A program made the position numbers and the translations under genes. From sequence record OR670491: a DNA stretch of 64,000 nucleotides; one strand, given 5' to 3'. Positions within the stretch are counted from its first letter, which is position 1; the number at the start of each line of letters is the position of its first letter. Source of the stretch: Escherichia phage vB_EcoM_JNE01. This document shows positions 38,124-45,447 of this stretch, piece after piece. Under the pieces are notes generated by a model, which was given only the letters and a program-made list of their open reading frames with translations, searched no databases and had not been told where the DNA came from.

Positions 38124-38534
38124 ATGATTGAAATGGAAGGAACTCTGGTGTATGATCCAGATCGTGGCACTATGAAAAAGAAGAAGGACTTCTGGTTAGT
38201 ACTGCAACTTCCATTACAGTTGGTTCGATACTACCAGTACTTCATCAGAACTGACTTACATATTGATATTAAAGACCCACAATGGGGAGCACATGTCAGT
38301 ATCGTTCGTGGTGAAGTGCCACCAAATCCAGAGTACTGGAAAAAGTACGATGGTATGAAAGTTAAGATTAAGTTCGAACCTTTCATCGAAGAAGTAAAAG
38401 ACAATAAGAAACCTGGGTCATTCTTTATCATAGAGTTTGAAGATGATTTCATTGCACAAATTCGTGATGAACTTGGTTTAGCATCTAAATATTTCAAATA
38501 TCACATCACCATTGGTAGAACATACTACGATTAA
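38124..38534 (+). CDS. hypothetical protein
   Basis: 136 aa. Confidence 0.45.
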   Translation: MIEMEGTLVYDPDRGTMKKKKDFWLVLQLPLQLVRYYQYFIRTDLHIDIKDPQWGAHVSIVRGEVPPNPEYWKKYDGMKVKIKFEPFIEEVKDNKKPGSFFIIEFEDDFIAQIRDELGLASKYFKYHITIGRTYYD

Positions 38535-38701
38535 TGTGGTTATTTGGTAAATAGGTCTTGATATAACTAAAAAGTATGCTATACTACTTAAATGTTCCAA
38601 AGAACAACTGAGTACTGTAGAAAGTCCAATGAGGCTTTTGCAAATGGCCTCTTTGCCCTCTTTGTGATTGCTCATTGTTAACAACCAACAAAGGAGGCGT
38701 T

Positions 38702-39628
38702 TTGAAAAAAGCGAAAAAAGCACTGAAAACTAAAATTGCCGTAGGCGTATTAGTTTCATCAGCCCTATTCGCTGCTATTGGATTTTATGGTTTTTCTCAA
38801 AGTGATCATGTACCATCATTAGACGAAAGTCAGGTGCATAATTTAAAACCACAGTTTACTCAAATTCAAAAGCAGGAACTACCACAGGTATCAGTACCAA
38901 AAGCAGTTCCAAGCAGCGAGAAACATTATACGGTTCAACCTGGAGATAGTTATTATTCTATTGCACAGAAATTTAAACCTAAAAATGTACAGATTGAAGA
39001 TTATGTCATTTTGTTGAAGAACATCAACTTAAATGCAACTCTTCATACTTCTCAGGGTATCTTTATCCCAACAAAAGAGGATTTGAAGAACGTATTGTTA
39101 CCAGATGTGACTGTACTGTTTGATTATAAAGATCCAGAAATTGTCAATCACATCAAAGAAGCTGAAGGTTCTATTGAATTTCAGTCCAAGAACAAACGAC
39201 GTTTACTTGGTGGGAAAGTTGGAGTTCCATATCGAAATTCTAAATTTTATCCGTATCGTGATATAAAAGGTAACTTCACTATTGGGTACGGACATTATCT
39301 TGGAAAGAAAGAATCAGATGCAAGTAAGTATCGTAATGGTATTACGAAGTCACAAGCACATAAACTTTTATTGTCTGACATGGAACGAACTAATAATGAT
39401 TTAGTTTTATTATTGAAGAAAAGAAATGCAACAAACCTTACGGCTGAACAGCAACGAATTTTATTTGAGATGGCATTTACATTAGGAGTTGATAAGTTAA
39501 ATACTTTCAATAAATTATGGAAAAGCGTTGATAATCAAAATGATAACAAGTTCAAAAAAGAAATTAAGAATTCTCTATGGTATCGTCAAGTAGGAAACCG
39601 TGCAGAATTGTTAGTTAGTAATTTGTAA
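38702..39628 (+). CDS. endolysin: GH24 (T4-lysozyme-like) muramidase with N-terminal TM/signal-anchor and LysM domain
   Basis: TM segment IAVGVLVSSALFAAIGFYGF; LysM-like YTVQPGDSYYSIAQKF; C-terminal TIGYGH...RxxLFEMAFTLG matches T4 lysozyme family; probable TTG start 38702 with RBS aaggagg. Confidence 0.7.
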   Translation: MKKAKKALKTKIAVGVLVSSALFAAIGFYGFSQSDHVPSLDESQVHNLKPQFTQIQKQELPQVSVPKAVPSSEKHYTVQPGDSYYSIAQKFKPKNVQIEDYVILLKNINLNATLHTSQGIFIPTKEDLKNVLLPDVTVLFDYKDPEIVNHIKEAEGSIEFQSKNKRRLLGGKVGVPYRNSKFYPYRDIKGNFTIGYGHYLGKKESDASKYRNGITKSQAHKLLLSDMERTNNDLVLLLKKRNATNLTAEQQRILFEMAFTLGVDKLNTFNKLWKSVDNQNDNKFKKEIKNSLWYRQVGNRAELLVSNL

Positions 39629-39677
39629 TTTACAATAAAGGATGATATGTATCATCCTTTATTTTTAAGGTAAAAAT

Positions 39678-40310
39678 ATGATATATAATGTTGGTATAAA
39701 TGATGTACCAGGTGATTCTAAATCGGATAGTGATGGTTATTATATATATGTGAAATGGAAAAGTATGATTAAACGATGCTACTCAGTTGAATATCAAAAA
39801 ATACACCATTCATATATTGGAACAACTGTATGTAATGAATGGCTTACATATTCAAATTTTAAAGATTGGTATCTAAATAATTACATAGACGGGTATGTTT
39901 TAGATAAAGACTTGATATCGGGTGATTTACAAGTATACTCACCAGTGACATGTTCATTTGTACCACAAGAATTAAATTGTTCTATTCTTGAAAGTAATAG
40001 TGCTAAAACAAAACTACCATTGGGTGTGTCATATCAACAGAAAACTAAAAATATGATAAATGAACGTTCGAAACCATATGATTCATATATAAAAATGTAT
40101 GGTAAGTTGTATCGTCTTGGTAGTTATGAATGTCCTGAACTTGCACATAAAGAATGGCAAATCGCCAAGAAAAAATATCTCGAAGAACTCATTGACAGAT
40201 ATAAAAATTCTGTTAAAATGGAAGTCATAGAAGGTATTCAGAAACGAATTGATATATTACATAATGATATAGTCAATGACGGTGTTACAATAACAATCAA
40301 TAAGATATAA
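39678..40310 (+). CDS. AP2-domain protein, homing-endonuclease-like (possible mobile ORF)
   Basis: WKSMIKRCY...YIGTTVCNEW motif plus AP2-like LGVSYQQKTKN...YGKLYRLGSYECPELAHKEW; AT-rich relative to neighbours. Confidence 0.45.
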   Translation: MIYNVGINDVPGDSKSDSDGYYIYVKWKSMIKRCYSVEYQKIHHSYIGTTVCNEWLTYSNFKDWYLNNYIDGYVLDKDLISGDLQVYSPVTCSFVPQELNCSILESNSAKTKLPLGVSYQQKTKNMINERSKPYDSYIKMYGKLYRLGSYECPELAHKEWQIAKKKYLEELIDRYKNSVKMEVIEGIQKRIDILHNDIVNDGVTITINKI

Positions 40311-40322
40311 GGTAGGTAAATT

Positions 40323-40649
40323 ATGCTAAATTTCGTTATCCAAGGTAATGTAGATGTTACTCCAGCAATTCATGACGCAATCCGCGATGAAGCAACAGTA
40401 CTAAGTAAATTTAGTGATGCTTCAGTACTGAATCTTGGTGTTCATCTGAAGAAAGAGCATAAAACACAGTACACTGTAACACTAACTTCTAATGGTAAGT
40501 CTGTTACTGCAAATGCAGCAGATTTATACAAAGCGATTAGTGATTCATTTGAAAAAATGGAAGTTGTACTTGGTAAAGACAAAAGCATTAAACTGCATCG
40601 TCGTAACCACCCAACACGTCCTCTGGACTTGACAGAAGACGAAGAGTAA
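40323..40649 (+). CDS. hpf: ribosome hibernation promoting factor / RaiA-like protein
   Basis: 108 aa; MLNFVIQGNVDVTPAIHDAIRDE...LHRRNH follows the HPF/YfiA pattern (N-terminal ITGxNVEITPALR-like, basic C-terminus). Confidence 0.6.
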   Translation: MLNFVIQGNVDVTPAIHDAIRDEATVLSKFSDASVLNLGVHLKKEHKTQYTVTLTSNGKSVTANAADLYKAISDSFEKMEVVLGKDKSIKLHRRNHPTRPLDLTEDEE

Positions 40650-40660
40650 TTTATAATAAA

Positions 40661-40690
40661 GGGACAGTATATTTCTGTCCCTTTTCTTTT
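40661..40690 (+). terminator. intrinsic terminator
   Basis: GGGACAG-loop-CTGTCCC then TTTTCTTTT. Confidence 0.65.
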
Positions 40691-41802: not shown

Positions 41803-42915
41803 ATGAAAAAATATCTCGTGGGTGGATTCGTCCGCGACCGACTACTGGGCTTACGTGCTAAAGACAAAGATTATGTCATTGTCAGTGCATCTGAATCTGA
41901 TATTAAGTACTTGAAAAGTATTGGGTACAAACAAGTCGGCATTGATTTCCCTGTATTCTTGAGTCCAGAGGGAAATGAATATGCATTAGCCAGGACTGAA
42001 CGTAAAGTCGGTGTAGGCTATAATGGCTTTGAAGTTAATACTAAAGGTGTAACCTTAGAAGACGACTTATATCGCCGTGACCTCACAATCAATGCTATTG
42101 CATACGATCCAGTACTGCAAATTCACATCGACCCATACGGTGGGAAAGATGATATTAAGAATAAAGTACTGCGTCACGTTTCAGAGCACTTCAAAGAAGA
42201 CCCATTACGTGTTCTTCGTCTTGCACGCTTTGCAACACGATATAATGACTTTACAATTCACGAAAGTACTGTTACAATGTGCACTGAAATGGTTAGTACT
42301 GGTGAGTTGAATCATCTTGTACCAGACCGTGTGTATGTTGAATTTGAAAAGGCACTCACTGAAGAGAAACCTGCCAAGTTCCTTAAGACACTGGCTAATT
42401 TCGGCTATTATGAAAAAGCATTTACTAAAACACTAACCCGTAAGGTATTAGAATTGGTTGATAACATTTCAGATAATTGTACAGAAGCATATAAGCCATA
42501 TTTCATTTGGAGTGCACTACTCGAAACAGAAGAAGTAAATAAAGACTCAGTACTGAACGAATCAATTAAAATGCCCGTTAAGTACGTGAAGTTTAGCAAT
42601 TATGTAAAACGATTCCGTGATGATATCAAGACATTCCGTAAGAAAACACCTGAAGAGATGGGTGCGTTGTTACTGGAAATGAACATTCGAAATAACGGTG
42701 GGGAAGAATTCCTGTACAAAGTGCTGGAGTACTTTATTCTTCGTCGTGAAATCGACCTTGAACTTGAAGATTTGATTATTAAGGTGTATGATCGTTACAC
42801 CGATACTGTATTACCTGATATTGAAGAAATGGTTAAAGACGGTTCTCTGGACAAGAAAGATATTCGTGACTTTGTACAAGGTTTGCGTATTACTGAAATC
42901 CAGAAAATGTTCTGA
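41803..42915 (+). CDS. cca: tRNA nucleotidyltransferase (CCA-adding enzyme family)
   Basis: N-terminal MKKYLVGGFVRDRLLGL ... DxD ... GIDFPVFLSPEGNEYALARTERK ... RRDLTINA closely follows class II CCA-adding enzyme head domain. Confidence 0.85.
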   Translation: MKKYLVGGFVRDRLLGLRAKDKDYVIVSASESDIKYLKSIGYKQVGIDFPVFLSPEGNEYALARTERKVGVGYNGFEVNTKGVTLEDDLYRRDLTINAIAYDPVLQIHIDPYGGKDDIKNKVLRHVSEHFKEDPLRVLRLARFATRYNDFTIHESTVTMCTEMVSTGELNHLVPDRVYVEFEKALTEEKPAKFLKTLANFGYYEKAFTKTLTRKVLELVDNISDNCTEAYKPYFIWSALLETEEVNKDSVLNESIKMPVKYVKFSNYVKRFRDDIKTFRKKTPEEMGALLLEMNIRNNGGEEFLYKVLEYFILRREIDLELEDLIIKVYDRYTDTVLPDIEEMVKDGSLDKKDIRDFVQGLRITEIQKMF

Positions 42916-45069: not shown

Positions 45070-45447
45070 ATGGCTGCTAATGAAACTAAAGTTGAAACTA
45101 TCCAAGCAATCGTAGTACTGAAAGGTACTGTCCCATCACCAGCGGAATTGGTTATGGCTGGAATGACTATTCTACACCAGTACAATCCAGCATCACCTAA
45201 CTATGTTCAAGATTATGAGGCAAAGGAATTCAATAAGCATTGGCAGTCGTGGCTAACTGACAACGAAGCAAAACAAGTTGTCTTTGAAGCAGATGATATT
45301 TTTGAACTGGAACAGATTGAGTTCTTGGCATCACAGCAATCTGTTCCATTGAGTAACTTCGGTAATGGTGAAGAGGTTCTAGTACTTGGACCATTCAGTA
45401 AAGGTGAAATCATTCATCTACTATCAAACTGCTCCGAAGTAAAGTAA
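45070..45447 (+). CDS. hypothetical protein
   Basis: 125 aa. Confidence 0.45.
   Translation: MAANETKVETIQAIVVLKGTVPSPAELVMAGMTILHQYNPASPNYVQDYEAKEFNKHWQSWLTDNEAKQVVFEADDIFELEQIEFLASQQSVPLSNFGNGEEVLVLGPFSKGEIIHLLSNCSEVK

What the first reader, a model, noticed from the sequence alone, without database searches (positions are those of the whole stretch)
40323..40649. Phage-encoded ribosome hibernation factor (HPF/RaiA-like)
The 108 aa protein follows the HPF/YfiA pattern from the N-terminal strand through to a basic C-terminus. A phage HPF could modulate host ribosome dimerisation or translation during infection. A CCA-adding enzyme at 41803..42915 lies nearby, suggesting a small translation-manipulation region.
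Basis: partly seen in the sequence, partly recalled or inferred. Interest (0 to 1): 0.55.

Follow-up and report, generated by a model that had tools for sequence, protein, structure and literature searches.

The report
Jumbo-phage RaiA-like ribosome hibernation protein
This is a real, selectively maintained phage gene for a small protein of the bacterial HPF/RaiA ribosome-silencing family, but it is already annotated as such in public phage genomes and nobody has yet shown what it does during infection.

Summary
The ORF at 40323..40649 (+, 108 aa) is real. It passes Pfam's threshold for Ribosomal_S30AE/HPF-RaiA (43.9 bits against 23.7). [quoted passage not shown] The window comes from an Asteriusvirus-like (121Q/PBECO4 group) jumbo coliphage. 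An identical protein in phage Turkey5 is already labelled 'ribosome hibernation promoting factor'. Its positional orthologue in phage GAP32 was reported as a phage HPF in 2019. Pairwise dN/dS is 0.17-0.27. It meets neither the RaiA nor the short-HPF equivalog cut-off. It lacks the arginine (R83) that contacts 16S m4C1402 in the published Gram-negative HPF and YfiA complexes, but keeps most other contact positions. Most likely it sits in the decoding centre of idle host ribosomes and holds them as protected 70S monomers. This is inferred, and the only phage HPF tested so far (rV5) was not found on ribosomes. The CCA-adding enzyme nearby is confirmed and the linkage is conserved across genera, but the two genes lie in separate transcription units. 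The finding is already known and of modest interest.

The parts
40323..40649 (+). CDS for a 108-aa HPF/RaiA-family (Ribosomal_S30AE) protein
   Evidence: ORF. Pfam PF02482 43.9 bits against GA 23.7. PHROG 34864 E = 2e-45 and PHROG 8990 'S30EA' E = 9e-7. AF2 fold E2-8, H14-27, E36-46, E49-56, E59-65, H68-95. Foldseek top 36 PDB hits are all HPF/RaiA/pY. 100% identical to Turkey5 XMR01763.1. dN/dS 0.17-0.27.
40323..40601 (+). [quoted passage not shown]
   Evidence: AF2 pLDDT is 71-88 per 10-residue block over residues 1-90. The core aligns to E. coli RaiA and HPF. Equivalents of the contact residues K29-W30, K80, K87 and K89 are kept. Equivalents of R17, K/R23, K26, R83 and K91 are absent.
40602..40646 (+). 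C-terminal extension (residues 94-108, RNHPTRPLDLTEDEE), predicted disordered, basic then acidic
   Evidence: pLDDT is below 50 for residues 95-108. The extension runs beyond the end of E. coli HPF and parallels the RaiA tail ...RRAATSVKDANFVEEVEEE. R94 is invariant across 50 phage and RaiA sequences. The tail is conserved within the clade, with pN well below pS.
40309..40317 (+). Ribosome-binding site AAGGTAGGT
   Evidence: Read from the sequence. Conserved as AAGGTAGGT or AAGGAAGGT in Turkey5, 121Q, A4 and EcMJ.
40658..40684 (+). Intrinsic terminator closing the HPF transcription unit
   Evidence: 10-bp stem, 5 G-C pairs, T-run. -15.2 kcal/mol, z = -3.99. The hairpin is kept with different stem sequences in EJP2, Munch, Hallingskeid and GAP32.
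40629..40657 (+). Perfect sigma-70 consensus promoter (TTGACA-17-TATAAT) for the downstream genes; its -35 is the Leu-Thr codons of the HPF tail
   Evidence: 12/12 match. One of 5 perfect sites on the + strand against 0.16 expected. The same overlap occurs in Munch and Hallingskeid. An RNA starting near 40664 cannot form the terminator hairpin.
40192..40219 (+). Candidate promoter (TTGACA-16-TAAAAT with TG) about 100 nt upstream of the HPF start, inside the inserted HNH-like ORF
   Evidence: 11/12 consensus match. Function is not tested.
39678..40310 (+). HNH-endonuclease-like ORF (210 aa) inserted between the lysozyme gene and HPF
   Evidence: PHROG 953 E = 8e-68. Absent at this spot in Turkey5, 121Q, A4, EcMJ and EJP2. 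Present at the same spot in Munch (51% identity) and in GAP32.
38675..39628 (+). LysM-lysozyme gene; in most relatives HPF follows it after 14-16 bp
   Evidence: PF00959 and PF01476. Gene order in relatives. In this window it has its own hairpin at 39634..39663 (-14.4 kcal/mol, z = -4.6).
38558..38585 (+). Extended -10 sigma-70-type promoter upstream of the lysozyme gene (with HPF downstream)
   Evidence: TTGATA-16-TATACT with TG. Conserved in Turkey5, 121Q, A4 and EcMJ.
41803..42915 (+). CCA-adding tRNA nucleotidyltransferase (syntenic neighbour, separate transcription unit)
   Evidence: PF01743 68.6 bits and PF12627 33.4 bits. Annotated as such in Turkey5, Munch, Hallingskeid and GAP32.

Best explanation
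[quoted passage not shown] Shown here: family and fold membership, purifying selection, conserved position in the genome, own ribosome-binding site, own terminator. Inferred by analogy with RaiA/YfiA: the protein is made from host-type (sigma-70-like) promoters. It enters the mRNA/tRNA channel of vacant host 30S/70S ribosomes at the A and P sites. Its tail runs towards the RMF site, so ribosomes stay as 70S monomers rather than RMF/HPF-driven 100S dimers. While bound, it blocks initiation on idle ribosomes and shields the decoding centre and the 16S 3' end from ribonucleases. The phage would thereby keep a reserve of intact ribosomes in starved or stressed host cells. The altered contact surface suggests a binding strength or geometry tuned differently from the host proteins. 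The R83, K91, K26 and K23 equivalents are lost, and lysines are gained in the beta2-beta3 hairpin.
For: Pfam PF02482 is above threshold. PDB sequence hits are essentially all HPF/RaiA factors. The AF2 fold gives 36 consecutive ribosome-bound HPF/RaiA/pY structures as best Foldseek matches, TM 0.55-0.77. dN/dS is 0.17-0.27, and the tail has pN well below pS. The tail extends 15 residues beyond the end of E. coli HPF and parallels the RaiA tail, with invariant R94 equivalent to RaiA R96. GAP32 keeps an acidic tail even where no promoter overlaps it. Residues conserved across three phage clades coincide with published ribosome contacts. These are K29-aromatic30, the K87 and K89 equivalents, and R95-R96 including the uS7 contact. 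The K80 equivalent is kept in two of the three clades (with contact list from bioRxiv 10.1101/2025.10.07.680626). Core net charge (+2) and pI (6.2) equal those of E. coli RaiA. The roles of the RaiA tail and of hibernation factors in blocking RNases are taken from PMC7913689.
Against: No experiment exists for this protein or its clade. The rV5 phage HPF, expressed in E. coli, was not found in 70S or 100S fractions and did not change the profile (PMC6375957). All phage clades lack the arginine (R83) that contacts m4C1402 in all four Gram-negative HPF and YfiA complexes of that preprint. The Asteriusvirus clade also lacks basic residues at the K26, K/R23, R17 and K91 positions. Scores are far below the RaiA (22 against 158) and HPF (17 against 125) equivalog cut-offs and just below TIGR00741 (34.3 against 40.9). 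A general translation inhibitor has no obvious selective benefit for a lytic phage.
Confidence: 0.5

Rival explanations
1. It acts like short HPF (YhbH): it cooperates with host RMF to stabilise 100S ribosome dimers and so pushes host ribosomes into hibernation.
For: It belongs to the same family and fold. The clade profile scores E. coli HPF slightly higher than RaiA in the PDB search (28.9 against 22.5 bits). Turkey5 labels it HPF.
Against: It carries a conserved 15-residue extension that short HPFs lack. In RaiA such an extension is thought to clash with RMF (PMC7913689). BLASTP finds no alignment to E. coli HPF but does align to RaiA. The HPF equivalog score is 17 against 125.
Confidence: 0.1
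2. It is an anti-hibernation competitor. A weakened binder occupies or displaces host HPF/RaiA/RMF sites transiently, so that ribosomes of starved cells stay available for phage mRNAs. This idea was raised for viral HPFs by Mizuno et al.
For: Several conserved rRNA-contact basic residues are lost, which would lower affinity. The RaiA-like tail could exclude RMF. The hypothesis is stated in PMC6375957. The hosts are gut and sewage E. coli that are often nutrient-limited.
Against: Total charge is conserved and new lysines appear at the beta2-beta3 hairpin, which also contacts the ribosome in HPF complexes. Affinity therefore need not be lower. There are no binding data.
Confidence: 0.17
3. The fold is retained but the protein no longer works on ribosomes. 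It may be exapted to bind another RNA or protein, or be a slowly decaying passenger gene.
For: The rV5 HPF was not found on ribosomes. The clade is isolated in sequence space, with only 41 hits at E <= 1e-3 among 1.84 billion representatives. The R83 equivalent is missing.
Against: Purifying selection acts on it. It keeps the same genomic position across at least four jumbo-phage genera. The positions conserved between phage clades are known ribosome-contact positions rather than only core residues.
Confidence: 0.2

Closest known systems
E. coli RaiA (YfiA, protein Y)
   Same: Single S30AE domain of about 110 aa. Short, flexible C-terminal extension with an RR motif followed by an acidic end. 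Same predicted fold. Core charge and pI are identical (+2, 6.2). 30% identity over 80 residues.
   Different: Scores 22 bits against the 158-bit equivalog cut-off. Lacks the R17, R23, K26, R83 and K91 equivalents. Has extra lysines at positions 43, 44, 47, 59 and 90. Phage-encoded.
Phage HPF homologues described by Mizuno et al. 2019 (GAP32_183 and the rV5 group)
   Same: GAP32_183 is the positional orthologue. Gene order is lysozyme, HNH, S30EA, small ORFs, tRNA nucleotidyltransferase, NUDIX, glutaredoxin. Both are PF02482 proteins of jumbo or large myoviruses of Enterobacterales.
   Different: The sequence is almost unrecognisable against GAP32 (BLASTP E = 0.001 over 43 residues). The rV5-type proteins are a separate and much more host-like lineage, about 44% identical to E. 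coli HPF. They are found with an E. coli HPF query but not with this protein.
E. coli short HPF (YhbH)
   Same: Same family and fold, same expected binding pocket.
   Different: HPF ends at the equivalent of residue 93 and has no tail. There is no BLASTP alignment. The equivalog score is 17 against 125.
Long HPF of Firmicutes, Thermus and others (N-terminal domain)
   Same: These give the best raw sequence matches in the PDB: 9t0z at 2e-6 and B. subtilis 5njt at 4e-5.
   Different: There is no C-terminal dimerisation domain, because the protein ends at residue 108.

Membership tests
HPF/RaiA superfamily (Pfam PF02482 Ribosomal_S30AE) | Profile match above the curated gathering score | tested here: met
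   43.9 bits against 23.7, E = 4e-11, residues 9-87 on profile positions 7-84 of 88.
HPF/RaiA superfamily (Pfam PF02482 Ribosomal_S30AE) | [quoted passage not shown] | tested here: met
   AF2 gives mean pLDDT 74.9 with the elements in the right order. The Foldseek top 36 PDB hits are all HPF/RaiA/pY, with TM up to 0.77.
HPF/RaiA superfamily (Pfam PF02482 Ribosomal_S30AE) | Basic track on helix alpha2 (K80, R83, K87, K91, plus R95 in RaiA) that contacts 16S rRNA | tested here: inconclusive
   The K80, K87 and R95 equivalents are present. R83 is replaced by V or T and K91 by I or V throughout the Asteriusvirus clade (contact list).
HPF/RaiA superfamily (Pfam PF02482 Ribosomal_S30AE) | Binds the 30S decoding centre of vacant ribosomes | not testable with these tools
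   This needs sedimentation or cryo-EM. The only phage homologue tested (rV5) was negative.
RaiA/YfiA subfamily | Single domain plus a short C-terminal extension (about 18 residues in E. coli) | tested here: met
   A 15-residue extension lies beyond the HPF end. It is disordered in the model and shares the RR motif and acidic terminus. The definition comes from PMC7913689.
RaiA/YfiA subfamily | NCBIfam equivalog NF007654 above its cut-off | tested here: not met
   22.1 bits against 158.
RaiA/YfiA subfamily | Prevents RMF binding and 100S formation, stabilises 70S | not testable with these tools
   This is a biochemical property.
Short HPF (YhbH) subfamily | About 95 aa without a tail, and NF007780 above its cut-off | tested here: not met
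   The protein is 108 aa with a tail. It scores 17.4 bits against 125.
Long HPF | C-terminal dimerisation domain | tested here: not met
   The protein ends at residue 108 and Pfam finds no second domain.
TIGR00741 (yfiA equivalog, HPF/YfiA family) | Score above the curated cut-off | tested here: not met
   34.3 bits against 40.9, which is just below.

The most novel reading that the evidence does not exclude
The Asteriusvirus/Munch/Hallingskeid/GAP32 proteins may form a phage-specific branch of the HPF/RaiA family with a rewired ribosome-contact surface. They have no R83-m4C1402 contact but carry a new lysine-rich beta2-beta3 hairpin and an RMF-excluding acidic tail. On this reading the branch evolved to override host RMF/HPF hibernation and to shield ribosomes from defence or starvation RNases. 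That would let jumbo phages replicate in non-growing cells, working alongside the linked CCA-adding tRNA repair enzyme.
Probability: 0.15. Interest if true: 0.6.

Novelty: already known. Interest (0 to 1): 0.3.

Why it matters
Phage-encoded hibernation-factor homologues suggest that large phages manage the state of host ribosomes, not only tRNAs and mRNAs. If this protein binds ribosomes, it would offer a simple way to study how phages infect starved, hibernating bacteria, which bears on phage therapy against stationary-phase and persister cells. As a genome-scan result, however, it adds little. The gene, its family assignment and the general idea are already in GenBank/RefSeq annotations and in the literature (PMC6375957, PMC11895373). 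The function remains open.

Tried and rejected
- **Subfamily assignment (RaiA, short HPF or long HPF).** NCBIfam slightly favours RaiA (22 against 17 bits). BLASTP aligns only to RaiA. The clade profile slightly favours HPF and long-HPF N-terminal domains in the PDB. I therefore rejected any orthology claim and kept only 'RaiA-like architecture'.
- **Profile search seeded with E. coli RaiA and HPF.** It returned mostly RaiAs, but the query contained a RaiA, so I did not use this as evidence of affinity.
- **Exhaustive profile search of 1.84 billion representatives.** It gave only 41 hits and no close cellular donor, so no origin could be named.
- **Tail conservation as a by-product of the overlapping promoter.** I rejected this as the sole cause. 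Synonymous sites in the tail vary freely. GAP32 keeps an acidic tail with the promoter placed after the stop codon.
- **A dedicated translation operon with the CCA enzyme.** Rejected, because a terminator and promoter lie between them, and 3-7 unknown small ORFs intervene depending on the phage (4 in this window). Turkey5's 'peptidyl-tRNA hydrolase' (window 45070..45447) has no Pfam support. The window has no tRNAs.
- **The conserved leader before the lysozyme gene.** It has no Rfam match, and its invariant 12-mer does not recur beyond chance.
- **Literature.** The phAPEC6 virion-proteome paper does not mention this protein. Franklin et al. 2020 on HPF mutagenesis was not available. The literature searches found no experimental study of a jumbo-phage HPF.

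Full report
**Observation**

The window holds an ATG-to-TAA ORF of 108 codons at exactly 40323..40649 on the + strand.
- A Shine-Dalgarno-like AAGGTAGGT ends 5 nt before the start codon.
- A hairpin plus T-run follows the stop at 40658..40684. It folds at -15.2 kcal/mol, z = -4.0 against shuffles.
- The protein matches Pfam PF02482 (Ribosomal_S30AE, the HPF/RaiA family) at 43.9 bits against a gathering score of 23.7, E = 4e-11, over residues 9-87.
- It matches PHROG 34864 (no function given) end to end, and PHROG 8990 ('sigma 54 modulation protein/ribosomal protein S30EA') at E = 9e-7.
- Against PDB sequences, nearly all significant hits are hibernation factors: long HPFs, T. thermophilus HPF, and E. 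coli RaiA and HPF.

**Source genome and prior annotation**

- The surrounding DNA is 98.6% identical to Escherichia phage Turkey5 and 77-89% identical to other phages of the 121Q/PBECO4 group, several of which are classified as Asteriusvirus. All are 347-386 kb jumbo coliphages.
- The protein is 100% identical to Turkey5 XMR01763.1, deposited as 'ribosome hibernation promoting factor'.
- The RefSeq records of 121Q and PBECO4 call their 67-68% identical homologues 'HPF/RaiA family ribosome-associated protein'.
- Forty-two phage records carry a relative. These are Asteriusvirus, the Salmonella Munch group, Erwinia phage Hallingskeid and Klebsiella fENko-Kae01.
- The Sharanji genome paper lists the gene among translation factors (PMC11895373).
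- Mizuno et al. 2019 reported HPF homologues in rV5-like phages and in the jumbo phage GAP32 (PMC6375957).
- GAP32_183 is the positional orthologue of the gene studied here. Gene order there is lysozyme, HNH endonuclease, S30EA protein, small ORFs, tRNA nucleotidyltransferase, NUDIX and glutaredoxin. The two proteins are barely alignable.
- The rV5-type genes form a different lineage, about 44% identical to E. coli HPF. About 130 phage records are found with an E. coli HPF query, and none with this protein.

The finding is therefore correct but already on record.

**Structure and selection**

I built an alignment of 50 sequences, made of phage relatives plus RaiAs returned by the homology search. 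The AlphaFold2 model from it has mean pLDDT 74.9. Its elements are E2-8, H14-27, E36-46, E49-56, E59-65 and H68-95, and residues 95-108 are disordered. The best 36 Foldseek matches in the PDB are all HPF, RaiA, pY or RafH factors, most of them in ribosome complexes, with TM-scores up to 0.77.

Pairwise Nei-Gojobori dN/dS among five Asteriusvirus genes is 0.17-0.27. In the last 20 or so codons, pN is 0.07-0.25 against pS 0.35-0.78. Both the domain and the tail are under purifying selection.

**Position within the family**

The protein is not an orthologue of either host paralogue.
- It scores 22.1 bits on the RaiA equivalog model (cut-off 158), 17.4 on the HPF equivalog (cut-off 125) and 34.3 on TIGR00741 (cut-off 40.9).
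- BLASTP aligns it to E. coli RaiA (30% over 80 residues) but not to HPF.
- The clade profile slightly prefers HPFs and long-HPF N-terminal domains in the PDB.
- An exhaustive profile search of 1.84 billion representatives found only 41 proteins at E <= 1e-3. The nearest were other phage-type sequences.

The architecture, however, is RaiA-like. E. coli HPF ends at the equivalent of residue 93. The phage protein continues for 15 residues, RNHPTRPLDLTEDEE, which compares with ...RRAATSVKDANFVEEVEEE in RaiA. R94 is invariant across 50 phage and RaiA sequences. PMC7913689 describes RaiA as an HPF homologue carrying an 18-residue extension. That extension is thought to reach into the RMF site and interfere with 100S formation.

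**Ribosome-contact residues**

A 2025 preprint on four Gram-negative hibernating ribosomes lists the contacts (10.1101/2025.10.07.680626).
- The alpha2 basic track is K80, R83, K87 and K91, plus R95 in YfiA.
- R83 is called the single essential arginine at m4C1402.
- K26 contacts the phosphates of C1496 and G1497.
- The K29-W30 group also contacts the ribosome.
- R96 touches uS7.

I mapped these onto an alignment of 59 family members.

| Status in the phage clades | Positions (E. coli numbering) |
|---|---|
| Kept in all three phage clades | K29-aromatic30, K87, K89, R95-R96 |
| Kept in two of three clades | K80 (Asparagine in most Munch-group sequences) |
| Lost in all three phage clades | R83 (replaced by V or T) |
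| Lost in Asteriusvirus and Hallingskeid groups | K91 (replaced by I or V) |
| Lost in the Asteriusvirus clade | Basic residues at 17, 23 and 26 |

In the other 34 aligned family members, positions 17, 23 and 26 are basic in 24, 30 and 28 of 34 sequences. The Asteriusvirus clade has invariant lysines at 43, 44, 47, 59 and 90 instead, several of them in the beta2-beta3 hairpin, which also touches the ribosome in HPF complexes. Core net charge (+2) and pI (6.2) equal those of E. coli RaiA. The contact surface looks rewired rather than eroded. That fits retained ribosome binding with altered geometry or affinity, but it cannot prove it.

**Transcription context**

In Turkey5, 121Q, A4, EcMJ and EJP2 the gene follows a LysM-lysozyme gene after 14-16 bp. 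A conserved extended -10 promoter lies upstream of the lysozyme gene, at window 38558..38585.

This window differs in two ways. The lysozyme gene has its own hairpin at 39634..39663. A 210-aa HNH-endonuclease-like ORF at 39678..40310 is inserted before HPF. A near-consensus promoter lies inside that ORF at 40192..40219.

The last codons of HPF double as a promoter. Leu-Thr (TTG ACA) is the -35 of a perfect TTGACA-17-TATAAT promoter at 40629..40657, which abuts the terminator.
- An RNA starting near 40664 cannot form the hairpin (-5.1 kcal/mol, z = -1.2). Upstream transcripts would therefore stop there and new ones read on.
- The same overlap exists in Munch and Hallingskeid.
- In GAP32 the -35 lies just after the stop codon, yet the tail is still acidic. 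The promoter alone does not explain tail conservation.
- Five perfect consensus promoters lie on the + strand of the window against 0.16 expected. Host-type promoters are a real feature of this genome.

**The 'translation region' claim**

The CCA-adding enzyme at 41803..42915 is confirmed. Its linkage to HPF is conserved in four genera. Against the idea of a dedicated module:
- The two genes are in separate transcription units, with 3-7 unknown small ORFs between them depending on the phage (4 in this window).
- The neighbours are mostly nucleotide-metabolism genes: thymidine kinase, NUDIX, glutaredoxin and dNMP kinase.
- The window has no tRNA genes.
- Turkey5's 'peptidyl-tRNA hydrolase' has no Pfam support.

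I rate this part of the interpretation as weakly supported.

**Mechanism**

The best-supported reading is a RaiA-type factor. It would bind vacant host 30S/70S ribosomes in the A/P-site channel, with its tail directed towards the RMF site. This would favour protected 70S monomers over 100S dimers and shield the decoding centre and the 16S 3' end from RNases, as shown for the host factors (PMC7913689).

| Reading | Confidence |
|---|---|
| RaiA-type factor that parks and protects 70S monomers | 0.5 |
| Weakened competitor that counteracts host hibernation | 0.17 |
| HPF-like promoter of 100S dimers | 0.1 |
| Retained fold with a non-ribosomal role | 0.2 |

The main evidence against all ribosome-binding models is that the rV5 HPF was not recovered with ribosomes. 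That protein belongs to a different lineage, and the authors used stringent salt washes.

**Verdict**

The finding is already known from annotation and literature. The function is untested, and interest is modest (0.3).

Noticed in passing
window 39678..40310 (+): A 210-aa HNH-endonuclease-like ORF matches PHROG 953 at E = 8e-68, but only the C-terminal half of the profile (positions 198-398 of 420). It is inserted between the lysozyme gene and HPF. It is absent at this spot in Turkey5, 121Q, A4, EcMJ and EJP2. It is present at the same spot in Salmonella phage Munch (51% identity) and, split into two ORFs, in GAP32. Relatives occur in 1508 phage records, often in several copies. It looks like a free-standing homing-endonuclease-type mobile gene.
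   Followed up: partly
window 40629..40684 (+); L002 4299..4350; L003 4295..4350: The Leu-Thr codons of the HPF tail (TTGACA) form the -35 of a perfect sigma-70 promoter whose -10 abuts the terminator hairpin. Transcripts started there cannot fold the terminator. This promoter-in-coding-end plus terminator layout is conserved in three phage genera. It fixes exactly four codons after Leu-Thr.
   Followed up: yes
window 22029, 29407, 40629, 58567, 58659 (all +): Five perfect TTGACA-N16-18-TATAAT sites lie on the coding strand against 0.16 expected by chance. This indicates a class of host-type consensus promoters in the jumbo phage genome.
   Followed up: partly
window 38600..38674 (+): A conserved leader of about 75-100 nt lies between the promoter and the lysozyme start. 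It includes an invariant TGTAGAAAGTCC and a GAGGC...GCCTC hairpin, and is conserved even in EJP2 where the upstream promoter differs. It has no Rfam match, and the 12-mer is not repeated elsewhere beyond chance.
   Followed up: partly
protein P0122 (representative library): A 1605-aa protein is built of about 29 tandem repeats of roughly 53 residues. Each repeat matches profile positions 44-82 of the phage HPF clade (E = 9e-31 overall). Its origin and meaning are unknown.
   Followed up: no
window 45070..45447 (+): This ORF is annotated 'peptidyl-tRNA hydrolase' in Turkey5 but has no Pfam match at E <= 0.01. The label should be treated with caution.
   Followed up: partly
window 38124..38534 (+); L003 1..1211: The ORF upstream of the lysozyme gene has a sub-threshold match to a 2H phosphoesterase domain (PF22547, 23.8 bits against 27). 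Hallingskeid has an RNA ligase a few kb upstream of its HPF. Together with the CCA-adding enzyme, this hints at RNA-repair functions in the area.
   Followed up: no
window 39634..39663 (+): A strong hairpin with a T-run (-14.4 kcal/mol, z = -4.6) lies directly after the lysozyme stop codon and before the HNH-like ORF. The five Asteriusvirus relatives lacking that ORF have no room for one, since only 14-16 bp separate lysozyme from HPF. Munch, which has the ORF, has a terminator annotated at the same spot. In this phage the hairpin may uncouple HPF from the lysozyme promoter.
   Followed up: partly
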